Positions 15,065 to 62,625 of a DNA stretch of 64,000 bases are shown here, piece by piece (position 1 is the stretch's first letter; every line of letters begins with the position of its first letter). Below the pieces are notes generated by a model. It was not told where the DNA came from, ran no database searches, and saw nothing but the letters and a program-made list of their open reading frames with translations. Source of the stretch: a virus; UHGV virus genome UHGV-0326994. One strand, 5' to 3'. The position numbers and the translations under genes were made by a program.

Positions 15065-15529
15065 ATGAAAATTAAAGAAGTAGTCCAAAAAGCAATGCTT
15101 AATAATTCAACTAAAGATGAAATGTACAAAGAGATTTGTGATAAGTTGAATTGTTCAAGACATGCTGCTAAGGCTCTTGTACATTGTTTTATCTGGGAAT
15201 GCTCAGAAGCTTATATGCAATATGTAGCATTTGAAAGTTCTCACTTACTAGGTGATGTAGAAGCTGGTGAGAAGCTAAAAGAATCTGAAGTGAAAACAGT
15301 TCCTAGAGTTGGTAATACATACCATCTTAAAGATTTCAAGACTGGAAAGATTGTTGCAAAGGGTGTAGTAGAGTTTGTCTATCATGACGGTAAATACTTA
15401 CTTAAAATATTTGAGTATGATAGCCACTACACACACTTGTGTGGTCTTACACTCTTAGTGACAGAAGAAGACCTCATCAAAAACAATGACAACAAGTTTG
15501 CAGTCCCAGATTACCAAGTTTTACGATAA
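15065..15529 (+). CDS. hypothetical protein (154 aa)
   Basis: ORF track. Confidence 0.45.
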   Translation: MKIKEVVQKAMLNNSTKDEMYKEICDKLNCSRHAAKALVHCFIWECSEAYMQYVAFESSHLLGDVEAGEKLKESEVKTVPRVGNTYHLKDFKTGKIVAKGVVEFVYHDGKYLLKIFEYDSHYTHLCGLTLLVTEEDLIKNNDNKFAVPDYQVLR

Positions 15530-15542
15530 TGGTGTGATAGTT

Positions 15543-16091
15543 ATGGAAAAAGATAACTTAAAAGAAGTTGAAGGTAACTACCTAGTACTTGACTGGAGTG
15601 ATGTTAGAGAAGCACTTTCTAAAGAAAGTCTTGGCATACTAGAACAGCTTGTCTTCTCGGTACGACATATCAGAGAAGTGAAGAATGGTAAAGAGCCACT
15701 TGAAGGAATCTTTGTAGAAAAGTCTTATCCATTCTATGAAGACACTTTACAGAAAGTTAAAATGTACTTTAAACAGAAGAACCGTAAAGTGGTCACTATG
15801 GTATCTCTTGGTGGACAGAATATGTCTGTGATGGAAGATATCAACCCTAAGAGACCGAGTAAAGGTGTTTGTATAAAAATCACAGGTCATGAAGAGTATA
15901 TCTCAGTGGATGACTTTAGTGCATTCTGTAATGGCTCTTGTGTCTTTAATGGTTTTCACTATGATATCCGAGTGTACCCAATCAAGGGAGATGATATCAT
16001 GATGCAGGTATTCGATAACAACAATGGATTCACTCATTTTTATCAGACCACCAAGTCATCACTAAAGACAGTTCTGGAAACACTGACTTAA
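15543..16091 (+). CDS. hypothetical protein
   Basis: ORF 15486-16091; start moved to MEKDNLK to avoid a 44-nt overlap; last plus-strand gene before the ORF-free region. Confidence 0.45.
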   Translation: MEKDNLKEVEGNYLVLDWSDVREALSKESLGILEQLVFSVRHIREVKNGKEPLEGIFVEKSYPFYEDTLQKVKMYFKQKNRKVVTMVSLGGQNMSVMEDINPKRPSKGVCIKITGHEEYISVDDFSAFCNGSCVFNGFHYDIRVYPIKGDDIMMQVFDNNNGFTHFYQTTKSSLKTVLETLT

Positions 16092-16639
16092 AATATCTTA
16101 AGAGCCTCCTTAATTGGGGGCTTTTTAATTTTTATAAAATTTTATCGGTTGTCCCAACCTCTGGGTCACCATCATATGTGAACAAAATATCTACCCTTCT
16201 TAACAACCTTCTTAATCTTACTCTCTATATAGTTATATAGTACTATATAGTATCTTAGTATCTATCTAGTGGTCTTAATAGCCATCTGTATAACCCTTCT
16301 AACTAGCCCTCTAAACACTCTTCTAACAAGCCTTCTTAACAACCTATACAATCACCTTAACCACCTCTCTATACCCTCTTAGAAGCTCCTATACACCTCT
16401 TAATCTCTATGTCAGCTATGATACCCTCTATAGGTGTTCACTAGGTATTACTAAGCCTCTATATAGACTGTTTTAACAAACTTAACAGGAATATCTTTAC
16501 AGACCTTATCTCACAAGGTCTAACACGGTACTAACAAGGTATCTTATAAGCCTGTTTCCACCTGTATTTTTAAAAGACTGTCTAGGTAATTATTCAGAAT
16601 TTTAAAATTTTTATAAAATAGGACTATCAAGTCATTTTT

Positions 16640-17300
16640 TAGGGTCTTTGAAGGAACTGAAAAATATCTGTAGAAGATGTATATCTGCTTGGTAGCCCTT
16701 AACATCCCTGTAACATCCCCTTTGCAGAATTTTAAAATATCCTTAACAATCTCTTAACAGCTCTTACACCTTCTTAACATCTCTTCAGAGGTCTTAACAG
16801 TTTCTTAACAGGACTAACAAGGGTGTAACAAGTTCTTAACAAGTGCTGAATAGTCTTTACAGAGGCTTAACAGATGACTAACAAGAGCTAACAAGTTAAT
16901 TTTTAAGAGTTATTTTGTTAAGAAAATTAACAAGTTCCTAACAAGTGTTTAATCTTTTTAACAAGCTATTAACATGGTCACTATCTCTTTCTTATCGTTC
17001 CCTTCCCCTTCTCAGTGATTCTCTAAACATACCTCTTAAAAGCTCTCTATAGCTCTTTATAAGCCCTTTTAAGCCTCTTCCTAGTATCTACACCCCAACT
17101 GTACAGATACCTTTTTATAGAGCTTTACAGGAGCTTTAAAGGCTATGTCAAAGACTCTTACAAGGCTTTTACGTGGTCTTAACAGAGATTTAACAAGGGG
17201 CTAACAAGTTGCTAACAAGTGCCTTGAAAGAATAACTATGTAGGGATTGTTAAGAAATTGTTAAGAAAATGTTAAGGGGGCTAGCATTTACGTAACTTTT
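16640..17300. repeat. dense array of short degenerate repeats ((C)TTAACA(A/G), CTAACAAG, TTGTTAAG) in an ORF-free region
   Basis: More than a dozen copies by eye within about 650 bp; no ORF of 60 aa or more between 16092 and 17570. Confidence 0.6.
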
Positions 17301-17693
17301 AAGCTACTTCAAAGTAACTTTATAGCCCCTATAACATACTTTTTAGTGACTATCAAGGGGATTGTTTAACTATTCACAAGATACTAACGAGATAATAAAG
17401 CTTATAACCTTATAAGATTCTTTTAAGCCTCTATAAAGCCCTGTAAAGAGCTTTTTAGGGTGAGTTAATGCAATCCCTTAAGTTAGGTTGATAAGGCTGT
17501 TATAGCGCTTTATAGAGCGTTTAAGGGATTGGTAACAATACCAATTAGTGGGCCATCCCCTTTCTGGGGTTATTGGCTTGTATTTAAGTTGATTTGATAA
17601 AAGGCTATAGAGTAGACTATAGAGTTATTGCTTTTAAGGTCTGATAAGATTCTGAAAAGGTGAGGAAAGGGATTGTATAAGGATTGGATAGAT

Positions 17694-17720
17694 GTAAAAA
17701 AGCCCCTGTGAGGGGCTGTA
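17694..17720 (-). terminator. intrinsic terminator closing the minus-strand block
   Basis: Hairpin GCCCCTGTGAGGGGC with T-run on minus strand; second hairpin GGGGCTAAATAGCCCC at 17732-17747. Confidence 0.55.
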
Positions 17721-17757
17721 TAAAGGTATCTGGGGCTAAATAGCCCCGTTGCGTCGA

Positions 17758-18006
17758 TTAGTTGCAACCTTGCTTATTGTAGTACAGGGAGACAATCAAA
17801 TCACCCCAATAATGGTAATGATACTCATCGTTCAACGCCTCTTTTACTGCATCTTTCCAGAAGTCATCAGTGGGGTTATAGTCTGGGATAACTTGCTTGA
17901 TAACTGTCTTCACTAATGAAAAGCATTCATCAGTTCCACCAATATCAAATTTAACGTCCAGAGTGTAGCAGCCATAAGAATTTACAATTGCGCGGATAGT
18001 TGCCAT
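17758..18006 (-). CDS. hypothetical small protein (82 aa)
   Basis: ORF track; conserved leader ...ctggagattctaaaATG upstream. Confidence 0.5.
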   Translation of the reverse strand: MATIRAIVNSYGCYTLDVKFDIGGTDECFSLVKTVIKQVIPDYNPTDDFWKDAVKEALNDEYHYHYWGDLIVSLYYNKQGCN

Positions 18007-18072
18007 TTTAGAATCTCCAGTTTAGGATTTTATTTAGTGGGGAAGGTCATTCCCTCCCCGTTGATTAGTAAT
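18007..18072 (-). repeat. conserved intergenic element, type A (hairpin GGGGAGGGAATGACCTTCCCC plus RBS leader)
   Basis: Near-identical copies at 18337, 18933, 19495, 21055, 21921. Confidence 0.65.
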
Positions 18073-18336
18073 TTACTGCATATTGGCGTATGTTGCAAGC
18101 CTTTTTTCGTTGTATTTTGTCAGAATCTCACAAGATAAAACATCATATTTTGTAACTGCTTTACCTTTGTCGAGGTCAAAGAATCCGAACGCTTTACCGT
18201 CTTTGAATCCGACAACTTCGTAAGATTCTTTAACGATTTCACCATTGAACAAATCGCTTTCGATGCGGTGAAACAGTGCTACGTCTTCTTTGTCAGTTGC
18301 AATTTGTAAAAGTGTGGTCAGTTCGACGTGTTCCAT
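18073..18336 (-). CDS. hypothetical small protein (87 aa)
   Basis: ORF track; preceded by type A element. Confidence 0.5.
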   Translation of the reverse strand: MEHVELTTLLQIATDKEDVALFHRIESDLFNGEIVKESYEVVGFKDGKAFGFFDLDKGKAVTKYDVLSCEILTKYNEKRLATYANMQ

Positions 18337-18401
18337 TTCGAATCTCCAGTTTAGGATTTTATTTAGTGGGGAAGGTCATTCCCTCCCCGTTGATTGACAA
18401 T
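18337..18401 (-). repeat. conserved intergenic element, type A
   Basis: Same 60-bp sequence as 18007-18072. Confidence 0.65.
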
Positions 18402-18932
18402 TTACAGATTTTTGATTGTCTCGTCAATATCTTTTTCAATATCTTTTAAAGTTTTTTCTAAGTTCTTGATATTGAACGTTAAACCTTCACCGAGAGTCTT
18501 AGAGTAACCGCTAGGGCGTAAATCATGCAGCTTGATTTCTTCCACATTAGATAAGTTTACCATCTCACCATTTGCAGCATAGGCTATAGATACAGTGTTT
18601 TCAGGCGCGTTGTAAAATTTGTTCAAGGACTTGATAGAACGTTCATAAGCCATTTTATAACCGTTTAAAAGGCTTTTAACGTGGTTGTGAACGTTTTTAC
18701 ACTCATCCAAGTAAATTTCTAAGAATAACGGTAATAATTCCGCGACAGCTTGCATAAAGTGAGAGACTACAACGGTTGCAACATTACGACGATGAACGTA
18801 ATAAGCCCCTTTTTCTGATTTGGTAATGGTTGCGAAATGTACACCATTACAACGAAATTCATAGGTATCTTTAACAGGCTTTGACATTACAGCATTTGAA
18901 CGAATGAAGTTGATAGCTTGAAATTTGTTCAT
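18402..18932 (-). CDS. hypothetical protein (176 aa)
   Basis: ORF track; preceded by type A element. Confidence 0.55.
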   Translation of the reverse strand: MNKFQAINFIRSNAVMSKPVKDTYEFRCNGVHFATITKSEKGAYYVHRRNVATVVVSHFMQAVAELLPLFLEIYLDECKNVHNHVKSLLNGYKMAYERSIKSLNKFYNAPENTVSIAYAANGEMVNLSNVEEIKLHDLRPSGYSKTLGEGLTFNIKNLEKTLKDIEKDIDETIKNL

Positions 18933-54498: not shown

Positions 54499-54755
54499 GT
54501 AAGCCTCTTTTAAATAACTATTAAGTTTTAATCTTTTATCTTAACGTATTCTATACGTTATACTTTAAAGCTTTTTAAAAGCTATTAAATAATCTTTTAA
54601 GAGTTTTAAAGTATCTGTATAGTTAAACTGTTAAGTAACCTTTTAAGTAAAAACCCACTTCGCAAAGATTAACACCTTGTCAAGTACATTGTCAACTTGC
54701 TTTTTATAATTTTTTGCAGTAATGTATGAGGTTAATGATTTTAGAGGGAGTAAAA

Positions 54756-57455
54756 ATGGAAAACGTAGATTTTAAAAACTTACATTTAGTTGGTGATACA
54801 GAAACTGATGGTTTACTCCTTGAGTTCACTAAAGTGCACGTAATGGCTTTCGCAGACTATAAATCTGACGATGAAGAGCCACCTGTATGGGTCTTTACAG
54901 ATGAGCCTATCCTCGGTCACAAATACACCAAGTATATCAAGGGTGGGTTACGCGAAGGTATTGAGTTTGCGTTAAAGGCAAAACGTCTTTGCATCCATAA
55001 CGGTCTCGGTTATGACTGGTGGGTTTTCAATCACATTGCACCCGATTTGTGGAACTTTGATAATCCAAAGTGTAAGCCGTGGAGTAATTTCTTTCAGGAT
55101 TCTCTTATCCAGTCTCGTGTTCAGTGGATGGATAGGCCAACCCCAAAGGGCTATAAAGGTGCTCATGGCTTGGCTGCATGGGGTGCTCGTGTTGGTGTCC
55201 GTAAACCAGAGATTGAACATTGGGGTGTGTGGAATGCAGAAATCTTCACTCGTGTTGTAGAAGATATCCGTATTAACGCCAAAACTAAACGTGCACTGGA
55301 TAATGAATATCTCAAGCTTAAGAAGTGTGGTATAGACACTTATGAAACCTATATGAGAGCTAAAGAAACATCTTTCTGGATGAGTCAACAAGCTATCAAT
55401 GGTTGGAAAGCTGATAAAGAGCTTATGGAGTTCCATGTAAAGGAACTTGACAAGTTGACTAATGAGCTTGCTTCAGAAGTTGAACCACATCTTCCTCCAA
55501 CTATTAAGACCAAAGGTAAAGTCACTGGAGAAGAGTTTGCAAAAGCTTGGAATGAGTATGTTGAAGCGTTCGGTCATGCAGATGGACTGAAGAGAATTAC
55601 CAAGTACCCTAAGACAAAGTATCGTCAACAGGTACGTAACGGTGAGATGCAGACATATGAAATCAAACCATTTGGTAAGCCAACTACAAAGATTTTTAAC
55701 ATTGAAAAGAGAAATTACTACACCCCAACCAACTCCGTAACTGGTGAAGAGTATAAGGAGGGTTTTGTAGCAATGAAGGATGCTCGTGCAATTTGCAATG
55801 AGTTGAATGCGAAGATTGGTAAGAAATGCAAAGACTGGAAGCCAGTAAAAACTGTCAAGACTGTGAAGTATTATAACAGCCACGTTGTTAACCATTTTGA
55901 ACTTGAGTCAAGTCGCTACACAGGATTGATTGATGCACCATATACACCAATTGAGTTTGAAGTTTCTCGTATGACTCAGGTGGCAGTTGTTAAAGACTAT
56001 TTGAAATCAGTTGGTTGGATTCCAGATGACTGGAACTATAAGAAAGACTCAGACGGTCGCCCTGTCAAAGTTTGTCGTTTCAAAGACAATAAAAAGATGA
56101 TTACAAAGCATCCTAAGTGGCAGGAGATGGTAGAGCGGTGTGGTTTGAGTTATGTTGAACATGAAGGTGTCCAGTACATTGAGCATAACTGGTCTGTGAA
56201 GAAGTACACTGATTTGCTTGAGCCTTGCTTAATCCGTACTTCACCAAAACTTACTGAATCATCTTATGATACGATTGAAGGTGAACTTGGACAGAAGATT
56301 GCTAAGTACTATACTTTGATGCACCGACGCAGGACTATTGAGAACTCAAAGGATGATGAAAAAGGTTGGCTGAACCAGATTCGTCCTGATGGTCGCCTTA
56401 GTGCTGGTGCAATGGTGTTTGGTACTTCAACTGGACGTATGACACAATATGGTATTGTAAACGTACCGTCTGGTGCTGCTGTCTATGGGGAACCAATGAG
56501 GGCAGTGTGGGTTTGTGAAGAAGGTACTAACGTTGTCTCTGTAGACATGAACTCAGCCCAGCTAGTTCTTCTTTGTAACTTTATGGGTGACAAAGACTTC
56601 ACCAAAGCGGTAACGCAAGGTAAAGAAGAGATTGAGTTTATTCGTCAAGAAGATGGACGCTATTACTGCAAACACTTTGATGAGTACCTCAATCCAGAGA
56701 TTGATAAGTACCTACGCTATGACTCTGAGAATGACCTTTACGTTGTCTATTCAGGGACTGATGCACACACACTGAACAGTATTTACTTTAGCTTGAATGA
56801 TGAGCAGGATATCTTGACTTGCCGAGCTACTCAGGATGAGAATCTTCTTCATGAGATTAGTAAGGGTCGTAAGAAAGCTAAGAATGGTATCTATGCACTA
56901 CTGTTCGGTGCAGGTGATGAGAAGTTTGCTAAGACTATTAAAGCTGCAACCACTCAGGAAGGTGCACTGACTAAACAGACTTACTTTATTCGTTTGCCTA
57001 AAATTAAGAAGCTGCTAGATGACTTGGAAGCTGACTACAAAGCGACTAAAAAGGCACTTGAAGAGGTATTTGGTAAGACTGCTGCAATCTCTAAAGGTGG
57101 TTTTGTAAAGGTTGCTGGAGCTTGGTTGTGGTGTAAATCTCCACACAAACTGTTGAACTATCTTTTGATGGGTTCAGAGGCTCAAATTCAGAATGAGGCG
57201 ATTAACCTTGCTTGTCGTCGTATGATTGACGAAGGCTTGATGAAGTTGAATGGTCGCAAACCAGCTATTGGTGCTCGTTTACTCTGCGCATATCACGATG
57301 AGACGAGTTGGGAATGCCCAGAAAGTATGACGGCAGATGTGAAAGCAGTTACTGACTGGTATTATGGACAAGCTTCTAAAAACTTAGGTCTTAAGAAAGA
57401 AACACTTGTTACAGGTACTGGTAAGGTTGGTAAAAGCTGGCTTGAGGTACACTAA
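54756..57455 (+). CDS. DNA polymerase, family A, with 3'-5' exonuclease domain
   Basis: Exo I motif GDTETDG, motif B RKKAKNGIYALLFGAG, motif C YHDE; start at MENVDFK with GAGGGA RBS. Confidence 0.85.
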   Translation: MENVDFKNLHLVGDTETDGLLLEFTKVHVMAFADYKSDDEEPPVWVFTDEPILGHKYTKYIKGGLREGIEFALKAKRLCIHNGLGYDWWVFNHIAPDLWNFDNPKCKPWSNFFQDSLIQSRVQWMDRPTPKGYKGAHGLAAWGARVGVRKPEIEHWGVWNAEIFTRVVEDIRINAKTKRALDNEYLKLKKCGIDTYETYMRAKETSFWMSQQAINGWKADKELMEFHVKELDKLTNELASEVEPHLPPTIKTKGKVTGEEFAKAWNEYVEAFGHADGLKRITKYPKTKYRQQVRNGEMQTYEIKPFGKPTTKIFNIEKRNYYTPTNSVTGEEYKEGFVAMKDARAICNELNAKIGKKCKDWKPVKTVKTVKYYNSHVVNHFELESSRYTGLIDAPYTPIEFEVSRMTQVAVVKDYLKSVGWIPDDWNYKKDSDGRPVKVCRFKDNKKMITKHPKWQEMVERCGLSYVEHEGVQYIEHNWSVKKYTDLLEPCLIRTSPKLTESSYDTIEGELGQKIAKYYTLMHRRRTIENSKDDEKGWLNQIRPDGRLSAGAMVFGTSTGRMTQYGIVNVPSGAAVYGEPMRAVWVCEEGTNVVSVDMNSAQLVLLCNFMGDKDFTKAVTQGKEEIEFIRQEDGRYYCKHFDEYLNPEIDKYLRYDSENDLYVVYSGTDAHTLNSIYFSLNDEQDILTCRATQDENLLHEISKGRKKAKNGIYALLFGAGDEKFAKTIKAATTQEGALTKQTYFIRLPKIKKLLDDLEADYKATKKALEEVFGKTAAISKGGFVKVAGAWLWCKSPHKLLNYLLMGSEAQIQNEAINLACRRMIDEGLMKLNGRKPAIGARLLCAYHDETSWECPESMTADVKAVTDWYYGQASKNLGLKKETLVTGTGKVGKSWLEVH

Positions 57456-62120: not shown

Positions 62121-62333
62121 ATGGCTCTTAAAAAGTTACATCCCAGAAGCGGTTATGGTAAGATAGTCGATGATACAGACGGCTTTACAGTCTTTACAGT
62201 CATCTGTCAAGATGATTCACAGATTGAAAAGGCTCTTGATGATTATCTTAACGATGAACGTGAAAAGGTTAGAGCTACAAACATAGATTCATTGATTGAC
62301 ACTTCACGTAAACGGAAGAAGAAAGATGAATGA
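62121..62333 (+). CDS. hypothetical protein (70 aa)
   Basis: ORF track. Confidence 0.4.
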   Translation: MALKKLHPRSGYGKIVDDTDGFTVFTVICQDDSQIEKALDDYLNDEREKVRATNIDSLIDTSRKRKKKDE

Positions 62334-62625
62334 AGTTTTTGACCCTTATGCTCCACAAGATGATTGGGAGGCTGACAGAGAGGCTGAAATGGAGAGTTAT
62401 GTTTGCCCAATGGATGTAGACGAAATGAGAGACTTCGTTGCACATCGTTTTAAGAGAGAGATTAAATCCAGAGGTCTTTCTCAGGAGCAAGTTGCTAAAA
62501 TTTGTGGTATCTCTCAGGCTCGCGTCTCCAACATAATCAATCTCACTGGTAATGTCTCTCTTGAGTTTATGTTGGAAGTATGCGAAAAATTTGGTGTTAA
62601 TTTTAATTTAAGGTTGGCAGATTAA
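62326..62625 (+). CDS. putative HTH DNA-binding protein
   Basis: Helix-turn-helix-like segment LSQEQVAKICGISQARVSNIIN; start at MNEVFDPY. Confidence 0.45.
   Translation: MNEVFDPYAPQDDWEADREAEMESYVCPMDVDEMRDFVAHRFKREIKSRGLSQEQVAKICGISQARVSNIINLTGNVSLEFMLEVCEKFGVNFNLRLAD

What the first reader, a model, noticed from the sequence alone, without database searches (positions are those of the whole stretch)
16092..17757. 1.6-kb ORF-free region densely packed with TTAACA-type short repeats where the two transcription directions converge
Between the last plus-strand gene (ends 16091) and the last minus-strand gene (ends 17758) there is no ORF of 60 aa or more. The sequence is saturated with degenerate short repeats (CTTAACA, CTAACAAG, TTGTTAAG, TATAG variants), far more than in coding DNA. 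A non-coding repeat array at a transcriptional convergence point suggests a replication origin or terminus, a packaging site, or a binding array for a nucleoid-type protein.
Basis: seen in the sequence. Interest (0 to 1): 0.7.

Follow-up and report, generated by a model that had tools for sequence, protein, structure and literature searches.

The report
Phage genome ends with repeat arrays
This gene-free stretch is where the two ends of a Felix O1-type phage chromosome meet: it holds the ~590-bp sequence carried at both ends of the packaged DNA, and that sequence holds about 24 copies, mostly one helical turn apart, of a short motif that looks like a protein docking site, for the phage's packaging enzyme or possibly for the host oxygen-sensing regulator ArcA.

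Summary
Window 16092-17757 has no conserved ORF. TAACA occurs 30 times against 2.6 expected, TAACAAG 13 times against 0.17, and the whole stretch has an ~11-bp periodicity (z 9.7).

The window is a Felixounavirus. The gap is the junction of the physical genome ends. Four related GenBank records from four laboratories start or end at identical nucleotides. These map to window 16691 and 17281, and three of the records carry exact terminal repeats of 581, 592 and 613 bp. So 16691-17281 is the direct terminal repeat (DTR), already known for this genus.

I found no published description of its internal anatomy:
- About 24 TGTTAAG/CTTAACA elements lie in modules of 2-6 at exactly 11 bp, all on one helix face.
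- Their cores are more conserved than the spacers across three genera.
- The same motif array recurs in an Erwinia phage that gave no hit in the window's DNA searches.
- Every indel of 2 bp or more is about a multiple of 11 bp.
- An inverted motif, TGCTW|G..CCCTTAACA, sits exactly at both DTR boundaries.

Best reading: a protein-coated concatemer-junction signal that directs two symmetric staggered cuts. The binder may be a candidate small terminase (DUF5681) or host ArcA-P. The arrays score up to 22.8 bits on an ArcA matrix built from E. coli ChIP-seq-defined ArcA boxes.

No evidence supports a replication origin.

The parts
16100..16135 (+). Rho-independent terminator closing the rightward gene block
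   Evidence: 10-bp stem with 5 G-C pairs, followed by a T run. The same feature is annotated in AYO145A and Mordin.
16160..16590 (+). Left unique flank, built of C/T-rich 10-12-bp units: CCTTCTAAC, CTCTATAG, a TATAG tandem at 16224-16270, and TAACA units at 16474-16536
   Evidence: for the repeat families; autocorrelation 0.41 at lag 12 and 0.33 at lag 11 for 16150-16470. A TTCTAA-type unit family is also enriched in the equivalent gap of Erwinia phage phiEa21-4.
16596..16622 (.). AT-rich element CAGAATTTTAAAATTTTTATAAAATAG, its core (16603-16621) invariant across relatives. CAGAATTTTAAAAT recurs at 16725, so the two copies bracket the left DTR boundary.
   Evidence: the AAAATTTTTATAAAATAG core is invariant across three genera; 85% of columns invariant in 16600-16619. 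Function unknown. It scores only as a weak sigma-70-like site.
16676..16704 (+). Left DTR boundary, GATGTATATCTGCTT|GGTAGCCCTTAACA. The inferred cut lies between 16690 and 16691.
   Evidence: Records pEP20 and ECP2307 begin with GGTAGCCC..., and Pr103Blw and SeKF_63 end with its reverse complement. Window 16680-16699 is 100% invariant across Felixounavirus, Mooglevirus and Suspvirus. TGTATATCTGCTT is also present in phiEa21-4.
16691..17281 (.). Direct terminal repeat (DTR), 591 bp. It is present once at each end of virion DNA and once per junction in concatemers.
   Evidence: The annotated 581-bp DTR of Pr103Blw aligns end to end with 16691-17281. Exact terminal repeats of 581, 592 and 613 bp occur in three records. 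Published DTR lengths are 581, 608 and 613 bp.
16700..16974 (-). Left array: 17 TGTTA cores (TAACA on +) in modules of 2-3 at exactly 11 bp, separated by phase steps of 9, 10 or 20 bp
   Evidence: the best long-range period is 10.3 bp with R 0.82, against a random 99th percentile of 0.64; cores 90% invariant against 59% for other columns (p 3e-8); nine ArcA-matrix sites of 13.7-17.9 bits.
16980..17157 (+). Central DTR segment without TAACA. It holds CTCTATAG / CTTTATAAG / CTTTTAAG units and conserved blocks such as GGTCACTATCTC, TTAGTGATTCTCTA and CCTAGTA.CTACACCCCAAC.
   Evidence: 50-75% invariant columns.
17158..17219 (-). Right direct array: six units at exactly 11 bp, namely TTACA, TTACG and then four TAACA(A/G)
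   Evidence: (family D2). ArcA-matrix site of 17.9 bits at 17179.
17247..17281 (+). Three inverted units and the right DTR boundary: TTGTTAAGAAATTGTTAAGAAAATGTTAAGGGGGC|TAGC. The inferred cut lies between 17281 and 17282.
   Evidence: The two best ArcA-box matrix scores in the whole 64-kb window are here, 22.6 and 22.8 bits at 17247 and 17258. ECP2307 ends with this sequence, and Pr103Blw and SeKF_63 begin with its reverse complement. It is conserved across three genera.
17270..17286 (-). Right copy of the inverted boundary motif TGCTA|GCCCCCTTAACA. The left copy is TGCTT|GGTAGCCCTTAACA at 16686-16704(+).
   Evidence: the composite pattern has only these two matches in 64 kb, against 0 in 100 shuffles. 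CCCTTAACA also occurs only at these two places. Caveat: the pattern was derived from these same two sites.
17282..17700 (+). Right unique flank. It starts with the conserved TAGCWTTTACGT, then carries CTTTATAG / CTATAAAG / CTTTTAAG units that vary between genera.
   Evidence: conservation falls from 85% to 0-40% beyond 17300.
17691..17745 (-). Terminator of the leftward gene block (stem 17701-17717 with T run), plus a second hairpin GGGGCTAAATAGCCCC at 17729-17745
   Evidence: the AYO145A annotation and the sequence itself.

Best explanation
The region is the terminal region of a Felixounavirus chromosome. It is seen here joined, as it would be in a concatemer or a circularised assembly.

Shown by comparison with relatives: 16691-17281 is the ~591-bp exact direct terminal repeat. 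The virion DNA starts 5'-GGTAGCCCTTAACA and ends ...AATGTTAAGGGGGC-3'. The two gene blocks that seem to converge actually run outward to the two ends and stop at terminators about 0.5-0.6 kb before the repeat.

Inferred: the repeat is a packaging and junction-processing signal.
1. About 24 TGTTAAG elements lie head to tail, 11 bp apart within modules. All sit on one face of the helix. Three inverted copies sit at the right edge.
2. These elements bind a protein cooperatively and coat or wrap the ~590 bp.
3. That complex marks the concatemer junction for terminase.
4. Terminase then nicks the top strand at TGCTT|G (16690/16691) and the bottom strand at the inverted copy TGCTA|G (17282/17281).
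5. The two nicks are 591 bp apart and leave 5' overhangs. A polymerase fills these in, so each daughter genome receives a complete repeat.

The most likely binder is the phage's own recognition subunit. A candidate small terminase (DUF5681) lies at window 8017-8388(-). Host ArcA-P may act as an alternative or a cofactor.
For: Termini:
- Several records break inside the region.
- The annotated 581-bp DTR of Pr103Blw aligns to 16691-17281.
- Four records from the USA, China, Canada and South Korea share identical end nucleotides, and three carry exact repeats of 581, 592 and 613 bp.
- The literature reports 608 bp by Bal31 digestion plus run-off sequencing for UAB_Phi87 (PMC4837284), 613 bp for Ro111lw (PMC6454146) and 581 bp for Pr103Blw (PMC8303462).

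Functional constraint:
- The gap architecture is kept in Felixounavirus, Mooglevirus and Suspvirus.
- TAACA cores are 86% invariant against 58% for other DTR columns, p 6e-10, and the left boundary is 100% invariant.
- The non-coding DNA stays about 76-90% identical, while the adjacent protein falls to 46-63% identity.
- All indels of 2 bp or more in the DTR are 11, 11, 11 and 21-22 bp.
- Erwinia phage phiEa21-4 did not appear among the window's DNA hits. Even so, its equivalent gap has the same motif: TGTTAA 17 against 0.67 expected, GTTAAGA 12 against 0.07, lag-11 autocorrelation 0.37. It also has the boundary element TGTATATCTGCTT.

Geometry:
- Local spacing is 11 bp, but the long-range period is 10.3-10.4 bp with R 0.75-0.82, so the elements sit on one helix face.

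Symmetric cutting:
- The boundary motif is unique in the window and inverted at both ends.

Recognition subunit:
- The DUF5681 gene heads the late operon that leads to TerL.
- In three unrelated phage or prophage lineages a DUF5681 gene directly precedes the large terminase gene; in a fourth, marine lineage a distant homologue without a Pfam hit lies 1.9-2.5 kb upstream of it.

Analogy:
- T7 also has one-orientation short repeats inside and next to its terminal repeat: TAAAG cores at 13 bp.
Against: - The termini are inferred from homologues. No reads of this particular phage were available.
- No binding, cutting or packaging experiment exists for the arrays.
- The nick-to-CCCTTAACA distance differs at the two ends, 5 nt against 3 nt, so the symmetry is imperfect. 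The composite motif was defined from the two sites themselves.
- No hairpin of the kind invoked for T7 repeat duplication was found at the boundaries: z -0.5 and -0.1, and only -2.0 for a larger imperfect palindrome.
- The TerS assignment rests on gene order alone. The model is a basic tail plus a helical hairpin (pLDDT 68.5) with no structural match, and there was no PDB sequence hit.
- The flanks outside the DTR are also periodic repeats of other motif types. The model does not explain them.
Confidence: 0.6

Rival explanations
1. Host ArcA-P array. The TGTTAAG elements are binding sites for the phosphorylated host response regulator ArcA, which binds head to tail to TGTTA repeats 11 bp apart. 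The phage ends would then recruit an abundant, anaerobiosis-activated host protein. It could serve as an architectural cofactor for junction recognition (as IHF does at lambda cosB and ArcA at the plasmid psi site), as a sponge that relieves ArcA repression of respiratory metabolism, or as an oxygen-dependent switch. This can coexist with the best explanation.
For: Published ArcA biology:
- ArcA-P binds 2-5 direct repeats with core TGTTA and DR element ATGTTAAAAA at 11-bp centre-to-centre spacing. A 12-bp spacing was not bound. More or better repeats bind more tightly and cooperatively (PMC3798270 and PMC4173790).
- The footprinted ArcA-P site of plasmid R1 is TGTTAAGTAAATGTTAA (PMC7303359).
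- ArcA is an accessory protein of Xer recombination at psi (bioRxiv 10.64898/2026.02.23.706985 abstract).

Matrix scan, using 115 of the 128 ArcA boxes of Park et al. Table S3:
- The two best sites in the 64-kb window are 17247 and 17258, at 22.6 and 22.8 bits. Natural E. coli sites have mean 15.8 and maximum 21.6.
- 7 of the 8 sites at or above 15 bits lie in the 591-bp DTR.
- A shuffled DTR gives 0.04 such sites.
- Each terminal gap of six relatives in four genera has 6-8 sites at or above 15 bits, against 0-1 in tens of kb of the rest.

All hosts (Escherichia, Salmonella, Shigella, Citrobacter, Erwinia) are Enterobacterales. By my own knowledge these carry a highly conserved ArcA.
Against: - The match was noticed after the fact.
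- Outside the TGTTA core the agreement is only moderate, r about 0.4. The phage units have G after TGTTAA in 45-49% of copies in three of the four phages examined (25% in Mordin), where ArcA sites have 8%. They have C before TGTTA in 18-39%, against 3%. Their spacers are less A/T-rich. The phage consensus CTTGTTAAG looks like a 9-bp element of its own.
- Single-repeat matrix enrichment is only about 3-fold.
- Other OmpR/PhoB-family boxes look similar. I recall PmrA as CTTAAT-N5-CTTAAT and the cyanobacterial Pho box as CTTAACCT at 11 bp, but I did not test these.
- No paper in the library links ArcA to Felix O1-type phages.
Confidence: 0.25
2. DNA-entry or end-protection device. Both ends of the injected DNA begin, within about 10 bp, with the same outward-facing element and an array behind it. 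A cytoplasmic protein binding the first DNA that enters could ratchet the genome into the cell or shield the ends from RecBCD.
For: - Both termini read 5'-G..CCCTTAACAT inward on the 5'-ended strand, with arrays just inside.
- Every gene near either end points outward, and the nearest promoter regions are about 8 kb and 37 kb inside. So transcription cannot pull in the first DNA the way it does for T7.
- The PhageMaP preprint notes that Bas63, a Felixounavirus, lacks a RecBCD inhibitor.
Against: This is purely inferential. Nothing is known about the entry kinetics of this group. The invariant boundary sequences lie partly outside the DTR (TGTATATCTGCTT at 16678-16690; TAGC.TTTACGT from 17282). 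Those parts are absent from one of the two virion ends, which points to a role in the concatemer instead.
Confidence: 0.1
3. Iteron-type replication origin. The direct repeats bind an initiator and the AT-rich element at 16596-16622 melts.
For: The region has many phased direct repeats plus a conserved AT-rich block.
Against: - There are no DnaA boxes.
- No initiator-like gene is adjacent: the five neighbouring ORFs scanned have no Pfam or PHROG function.
- The skew turns track gene-strand switches at 8, 16 and 54.5 kb.
- The replisome genes are T7-like: primase/helicase, DNA polymerase, exonuclease and ligase. By my own knowledge that type does not use iteron origins.
- The arrays end exactly at the mapped termini.
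Confidence: 0.07
4. No specific function: a slippage-generated satellite or spacer, or an unannotated small gene or RNA.
For: Indels occur in whole units, as slippage would give. A few short open frames exist.
Against: - Motif cores and boundaries are under stronger constraint than the spacers and than the neighbouring protein.
- The motif persists in a genus that gave no hit in the window's DNA searches.
- The open frames are not conserved.
- Rfam gives only sub-threshold noise: the best hits score 17-22 bits against gathering thresholds of 50-90.
- Terminators shield both sides.
Confidence: 0.03

Closest known systems
Bacteriophage T7 terminal repeat with its flanking short-repeat arrays (SRL/SRR) at the concatemer junction
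   Same: - Short exact DTR in non-coding DNA.
- Arrays of a short one-orientation motif both inside the repeat and next to it. In T7, TAAAG cores occur at 19, 43 and 62 inside the 160-bp repeat, then as an array at 177-334.
- The junction is the site where maturation and packaging start (PMC3276506).
- The unit shape is similar: pyrimidine run + TAAAG in T7, against CTTTAAAG / CTATAAAG / CTTAACAAG here.
   Different: - Motif and period differ: CCTAAAG at 13 bp (autocorrelation 0.57 at lag 13) against TGTTAAG at 11 bp.
- There is no sequence homology.
- T7 couples junction processing to its own RNA polymerase, which pauses there. By my own knowledge this phage group has no such polymerase; none appears in the pEP20 annotation.
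- The repeat is 591 bp against 160 bp.
- The T7 ends have no ArcA-like sites; the best matrix score is 10.7 bits.
Lambda cos: cosN nicking site plus cosB terminase and IHF binding sites (from my own knowledge)
   Same: - A rotationally symmetric pair of nick sites on opposite strands.
- An adjacent array of small-subunit binding sites.
- A host architectural protein helps assemble the complex.
   Different: - In lambda the nicks are 12 bp apart and give cohesive ends.
- Here they would be 591 bp apart and be filled in to give a duplicated repeat.
- The binding array lies between the nick sites, not beside them.
- Nothing has been tested experimentally.
ArcA-P multi-repeat operators (icdA and others) and the ArcA site of F-like plasmid P_Y promoters
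   Same: - TGTTA core, head-to-tail repeats and strict 11-bp spacing.
- Modules of 2-6 repeats.
- Scores on the ArcA-box matrix equal or exceed the best natural sites.
   Different: - Natural sites have 2-5 repeats at promoters. Here there are about 24 in a non-promoter DNA end region.
- Flank preferences differ: G after TGTTAA, and GC-richer spacers.
- Binding has not been shown.
Bacteriophage T5 long terminal repeat with its repeat-rich injection-stop region (from my own knowledge)
   Same: A large non-coding, repeat-dense segment associated with a terminal repeat and with DNA entry.
   Different: T5's repeat is about 10 kb and carries genes (one search gives the size). Its repeats are large inverted repeats and palindromes. 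No two-step entry is known for Felix O1-type phages.

Membership tests
Short exact direct terminal repeat (T7-type, non-permuted) of a tailed phage | The same sequence is present at both ends of the virion DNA | tested here: met
   Exact 581-, 592- and 613-bp repeats sit at both record ends of Pr103Blw, ECP2307 and SeKF_63. The Pr103Blw repeat aligns to window 16691-17281. For the window's own phage this is inferred by homology.
Short exact direct terminal repeat (T7-type, non-permuted) of a tailed phage | Fixed, sequence-specific termini, not circularly permuted | tested here: met
   End nucleotides are identical in four independent records. The literature adds Bal31 digestion plus run-off sequencing, and PhageTerm results.
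Short exact direct terminal repeat (T7-type, non-permuted) of a tailed phage | Read-start peaks and doubled coverage over the repeat in this phage's own sequencing data | not testable with these tools
   No reads are available for the window.
ArcA-P binding site | Direct repeats with core TGTTA | tested here: met
   The gap has 35 TGTTA/TAACA cores, 24 of them in the DTR (21 on one strand, 3 inverted).
ArcA-P binding site | 11-bp centre-to-centre spacing of adjacent repeats | tested here: met
   12 of 29 successive spacings are exactly 11 bp, with runs of up to 6 units in register.
ArcA-P binding site | Score on the 18-bp ArcA-box matrix within the range of ChIP-defined sites (9.6-21.6 bits) | tested here: met
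   There are 13 sites at or above 12 bits and 7 at or above 15 bits, with a maximum of 22.8, in the 1.67-kb gap. The other 62 kb has 12 and 1.
ArcA-P binding site | Flanking preferences of the 10-bp element (A/T before TGTTA, A/T-rich after TGTTAA) | tested here: inconclusive
   Correlation with ArcA frequencies over non-core positions is 0.35-0.42. G after TGTTAA occurs in 45-49% of copies in three of the four phages (25% in Mordin), against 8%. C before the core occurs in 18-39%, against 3%. The footprinted R1 site does have TGTTAAG.
ArcA-P binding site | Phosphorylation-dependent binding by ArcA in vitro or in vivo | not testable with these tools
   This needs a gel shift, a footprint or ChIP.
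Iteron-type replication origin | An initiator gene next to the iterons, and DnaA boxes | tested here: not met
   There is no DnaA box in the region. The five flanking ORFs scanned have no recognisable function.
Iteron-type replication origin | Phased direct repeats next to an AT-rich unwinding element | tested here: inconclusive
   Repeats and a conserved AT-rich block (16596-16622) exist. Termini and packaging signals can show the same features.
Terminase small-subunit recognition site (pac/cosB-like) | Repeated, helically phased motifs close to the cleavage sites | tested here: met
   The arrays abut both mapped termini and stay on one helix face over 500 bp.
Terminase small-subunit recognition site (pac/cosB-like) | A small-subunit gene in the phage | tested here: inconclusive
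   The DUF5681 protein at window 8017-8388(-) is a candidate by gene order only. DUF5681 genes directly precede TerL in three unrelated lineages. There is no structural or sequence match to a solved TerS.
T7 SRL/SRR repeat arrays | CCTAAAG heptamer units at about 13-bp spacing | tested here: not met
   The motif and period differ here: TGTTAAG at 11 bp. The two are analogous, not homologous.

The most novel reading that the evidence does not exclude
Felix O1-type phages (four Ounavirinae genera that infect Enterobacterales) carry, in the terminal repeat at both chromosome ends, an array of about 20-30 high-scoring binding sites for the host redox-responsive regulator ArcA-P. That is far more than any chromosomal operator. 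The phage would then either use an oxygen-sensing host transcription factor as the architectural core of its genome-end and packaging complex, or soak it up to reprogram host respiration during infection in the anaerobic gut.
Probability: 0.25. Interest if true: 0.8.

Novelty: new variant of a known kind. Interest (0 to 1): 0.55.

Why it matters
Felix O1-type phages are among the most used Salmonella and E. coli typing, biocontrol and therapy phages. More than 250 of their genomes are in GenBank. Most of those records are opened arbitrarily and leave this 1.6-kb gap unexplained.

Placing the physical ends here has three uses:
- It gives a rule for orienting and annotating these genomes: the left end is GGTAGCCCTTAACA, the right end is ...TGTTAAGGGGGC.
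- It identifies which DNA must be kept when engineering or rebooting these genomes.
- It yields a concrete, testable model for how a phage without a T7-type RNA polymerase recognises its concatemer junction and duplicates its terminal repeat. That mechanism is understood only for T7 and T3.

If the arrays bind ArcA-P, this would be, as far as I could find, a new kind of phage-host interface linking genome maturation or host reprogramming to oxygen availability. The DUF5681 observation would also supply the small terminase that the Felix O1 genome paper could not identify.

Tried and rejected
- **Known RNA families.** An Rfam scan of 15500-18500 at E up to 10 gave only three sub-threshold hits (17-22 bits against gathering thresholds of 50-90). 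No known RNA.
- **Promoters.** Sigma-70 promoter-like sites were not enriched: 16 found against 12.3 +/- 3.7 in shuffles.
- **Coding potential.** Open frames in the gap are short and not conserved in position across eight relatives.
- **DnaA boxes.** None in the region.
- **Hairpins or cruciforms at the DTR boundaries.** Not significant: z -0.5, -0.1 and -2.0.
- **UAB_Phi87 GenBank record.** It does not start at the physical ends, so it could not be used to place the DTR.
- **The Felix O1 genome paper.** It does not discuss this gap and only infers 'short terminal repeats' from the genome size.
- **PhageMaP knockout study of Bas63.** It targeted genes only, and no supplementary tables are held, so it gives no essentiality data for the gap.
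- **DUF5681 protein.** No NCBIfam, PDB sequence or Foldseek match. The model is a basic tail plus a helical hairpin.
- **Single-repeat ArcA matrix.** Too low in information (7.8 bits) to be discriminating in this AT-rich genome; enrichment was only about 3-fold.
- **Exact-pattern scan of IMG/VR for three TGTTAAG units at 11 bp.** Besides Felix-like contigs, it found many unrelated contigs with 3-4 copies, and some with longer tandem runs of the unit. This shows the motif type is widespread, but it says nothing decisive about this array.
Full report
**1.

The + strand ORF 15486-16091 and the - strand ORF 17758-18006 bound a 1666-bp gap. An inward-facing intrinsic terminator sits at each edge, and both are also annotated in phage AYO145A.

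Against the rest of the window, motif counts are far above expectation:
- TAACA: 30 against 2.6 expected
- TAACAAG: 13 against 0.17
- CTAACAAG: 8 against 0.01
- CTCTATA: 6 against 0.04

The motif is strongly strand-biased, 30 copies on + against 5 on -, and 12 of the 29 successive spacings are exactly 11 bp. Base autocorrelation at lag 11 is 0.393, against 0.268 in control chunks (z 9.7), with harmonics at 22 and 32. So the whole gap, not just the TAACA part, is built of units of about 11 bp.

It is not conserved.

**2. What the window is**

The gap matches 256 phage records, and 200 of them cover at least 80% of it at 80-93% identity. All are Felix O1-type myophages: Felixounavirus and its sister genera. 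Most records leave the gap unannotated or mark only small 'repeat_region' or terminator features. The Felix O1 genome paper does not discuss it and only infers 'short terminal repeats' from the genome size (PMC3185647).

**3. The gap is the junction of the physical genome ends**

A 6-kb query showed that several records begin or end inside the gap.

Pr103Blw has a 581-bp DTR found by PhageTerm (PMC8303462) and annotates that repeat at both record ends. The repeat aligns end to end with window 16691-17281.

Four records from four countries (pEP20, ECP2307, SeKF_63, Pr103Blw) start or end at exactly the same nucleotides: 5'-GGTAGCCCTTAACA... and ...AATGTTAAGGGGGC-3'. Three of them carry exact terminal repeats of 581, 592 and 613 bp.

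Independent wet-lab evidence exists for UAB_Phi87: Bal31 digestion plus run-off sequencing gave 608 bp (PMC4837284). Ro111lw gave 613 bp (PMC6454146).

So 16691-17281 is the direct terminal repeat. About 600 bp of unique non-coding DNA lies to its left and about 476 bp to its right. The 'convergent transcription' is two gene blocks running outward to the two ends of a linear molecule; the pEP20 map shows this. For the window's own phage this is inference by homology, but the boundary sequences are identical.

**4. Anatomy and constraint**

Inside the DTR, from left to right:
- 17 TAACA cores at 16700-16974, in modules of 2-3 at exactly 11 bp, separated by steps of 9, 10 or 20 bp
- a core-free central segment
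- six units at exactly 11 bp at 17158-17219
- three inverted units (TTGTTAAG) at 17247-17276, abutting the right end

Local spacing is 11 bp, yet the best long-range period for all 21 same-strand cores is 10.3-10.4 bp. R is 0.75-0.82, against a random 99th percentile of 0.64. The sites therefore stay on one face of the helix over about 500 bp.

The same layout is found in Mooglevirus and Suspvirus. In a six-sequence, three-genus alignment, TAACA cores are 86% invariant against 58% for other DTR columns (p 6e-10). The 20 bp spanning the left boundary are 100% invariant. Every indel of 2 bp or more in the DTR is 11, 11, 11 or 21-22 bp. The neighbouring protein (17758-18006) diverges to 46-63% identity in phages whose non-coding DTR stays about 76-90% identical.

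Erwinia phage phiEa21-4 (Kolesnikvirus) did not appear among the window's DNA hits. Its equivalent gap nonetheless has the same content:
- TGTTAA 17 against 0.67 expected
- GTTAAGA 12 against 0.07
- lag-11 autocorrelation 0.37
- the boundary element TGTATATCTGCTT

The cluster is unique in the 64-kb window and in the complete pEP20 genome.

**5. The boundaries are an inverted pair**

Read 5' to 3' into the repeat, the left boundary is TGCTT|GGTAGCCCTTAACAT. The right boundary, on the other strand, is TGCTA|GCCCCCTTAACAT. The composite pattern TGCTWG-N0-6-CCCTTAACA occurs only at these two places in 64 kb, and so does CCCTTAACA alone. The pattern was derived from these two sites, so its uniqueness is descriptive, not a significance test.

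The symmetry suggests one enzyme acting in the same geometry on opposite strands. Two nicks 591 bp apart would leave 5' overhangs that a polymerase can fill, giving each daughter molecule a full repeat. No significant hairpins occur at the boundaries.

**6. Who binds the arrays?**

Head-to-tail repeats one helical turn apart fit two kinds of binder. One is a ring-shaped small terminase with DNA wrapped around it; that comparison is from my own knowledge of TerS structures. The other is a winged-helix response regulator.

*A candidate small terminase.* Window 8017-8388(-) encodes a 123-aa DUF5681 protein. It heads the operon that runs through the tRNA cluster to TerL. In three unrelated phage or prophage lineages a DUF5681 gene directly precedes, and in two of them overlaps, the large terminase gene. 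In a fourth, marine lineage a distant homologue without a Pfam hit lies 1.9-2.5 kb upstream of it. The predicted structure is a conserved basic N-terminal tail plus a helical hairpin, with no structural match. This is probably the small terminase that the Felix O1 paper could not find.

*Host ArcA-P.* The core and spacing are those of the host regulator ArcA-P: core TGTTA, element ATGTTAAAAA, 11 bp centre to centre, 2-5 repeats. A 12-bp spacing was not bound, and more or better repeats bind more tightly (PMC3798270 and PMC4173790).

I built a matrix from 115 of the 128 ArcA boxes listed for E. coli ChIP-seq regions. Results:
- The two best scores in the whole window are at 17247 and 17258, 22.6 and 22.8 bits. 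Natural sites have mean 15.8 and maximum 21.6.
- 7 of the 8 sites at or above 15 bits fall in the DTR.
- Six relatives in four genera each have 6-8 such sites in the gap, against 0-1 elsewhere. A shuffled DTR gives 0.04.

The footprinted ArcA site of plasmid R1 is TGTTAAGTAAATGTTAA. ArcA is also an accessory factor for Xer recombination at the plasmid psi site.

Against ArcA:
- Flank preferences agree only moderately (r about 0.4).
- The phage units have G after TGTTAA in 45-49% of copies in three of the four phages examined, against 8% in ArcA sites.
- They have C before the core in 18-39%, against 3%.
- I noticed the match after the fact.
- Other OmpR/PhoB-family boxes look similar.

No paper in the searchable library links ArcA to these phages.

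**7. Comparison with known systems**

T7 has the same general design. TAAAG cores lie inside its 160-bp repeat, and an array at 13-bp spacing sits just inside it. Junction processing there is tied to T7 RNA polymerase pausing. Motif, period and mechanism differ, so this region is analogous to T7's, not a member of the same family.

Lambda cos offers the closest mechanistic picture: symmetric nicks, a small-subunit site array and a host bending protein. But its nicks are 12 bp apart.

An iteron-type origin is not supported. There are no DnaA boxes, no adjacent initiator gene, and the skew turns follow gene strand.

**8. Verdict**

The finding is real and important to the phage, but its identity as the genome-end / DTR region is already known for the genus. 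The following appear undescribed, and they give a testable model:
- the phased array architecture
- its conservation across four genera
- the inverted boundary motif
- the ArcA-like character of the arrays
- the DUF5681 small-terminase candidate

My confidence by tier:
- about 0.9 that this is the DTR region
- about 0.45 that the arrays are the terminase recognition platform
- about 0.25 that ArcA-P binds them

Noticed in passing
window 8017-8388 (-): This 123-aa DUF5681 protein is the first gene of the operon that leads through the tRNA cluster to TerL. In three unrelated phage or prophage lineages a DUF5681 gene directly precedes the large terminase gene. It is therefore probably the small terminase that the Felix O1 genome paper could not identify. 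It has an invariant N-terminal motif, K-G-x3-N-x2-GRP-x-G-x2-N.
   Followed up: partly
window 62296-62625 (+): A Cro/C1-type HTH protein (Pfam HTH_3, E 5e-11), annotated 'transcriptional regulator' in pEP20. It is another candidate phage DNA-binding protein. Its target is unknown.
   Followed up: partly
window 17758-18006 (-) compared with 16691-17281: The protein next to the gap falls to 46-63% amino-acid identity in relatives, including Felix O1 itself at 63%. The adjacent non-coding terminal repeat stays about 76-90% identical at the DNA level. That is the reverse of the usual pattern.
   Followed up: yes
window 16290-16345; L021 (phiEa21-4) 16600-16920: A second unit family, (C)CTTCTAA(C/A/G) at 11-12-bp spacing, fills part of the left unique flank. 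It is even more abundant in the Erwinia phage gap (CTTCTAA 9 against 0.34 expected). Its binder or role is unknown.
   Followed up: partly
window 16596-16609 and 16725-16738: CAGAATTTTAAAAT occurs twice, 129 bp apart, bracketing the left DTR boundary. The first copy belongs to an AT-rich element whose core is invariant across three genera. It might be a promoter, a bend or an unwinding element.
   Followed up: no
window ~18042-18056: Two draft contigs of Salmonella phages FSL SP-010 and SP-012 both end about 290-300 bp to the right of the gap, in the intergenic space after ORF 17758-18006. I could not tell whether this is an assembly break or something else.
   Followed up: no
L022-L101 (IMG/VR contigs): Many unrelated environmental viral contigs carry 3-4 TGTTAAG units at 11-bp spacing, and some carry longer tandem runs. 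Several recurrent sequence families appear, for example CCAATGTTAAGCCAATGTTAAGAAATTGTTAAGTAATTGTTAAG. They are probably response-regulator boxes (Pho-box-like, from memory), not terminal arrays.
   Followed up: partly
window 54726-57455 (+): The DNA polymerase ORF is continuous here (909 aa). In pEP20 it is split into 727-aa and 184-aa parts by an inserted 'endonuclease VII' gene. The window's phage therefore lacks a homing-endonuclease insertion present in that relative.
   Followed up: no
window 588-7935 (-): There are 25 tRNA genes. Upstream of them on the - strand is a 471-aa DUF2828 protein (6520-7935), which the PhageMaP preprint describes as Ro60-like in Bas63 and links to defence evasion.
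   Followed up: no
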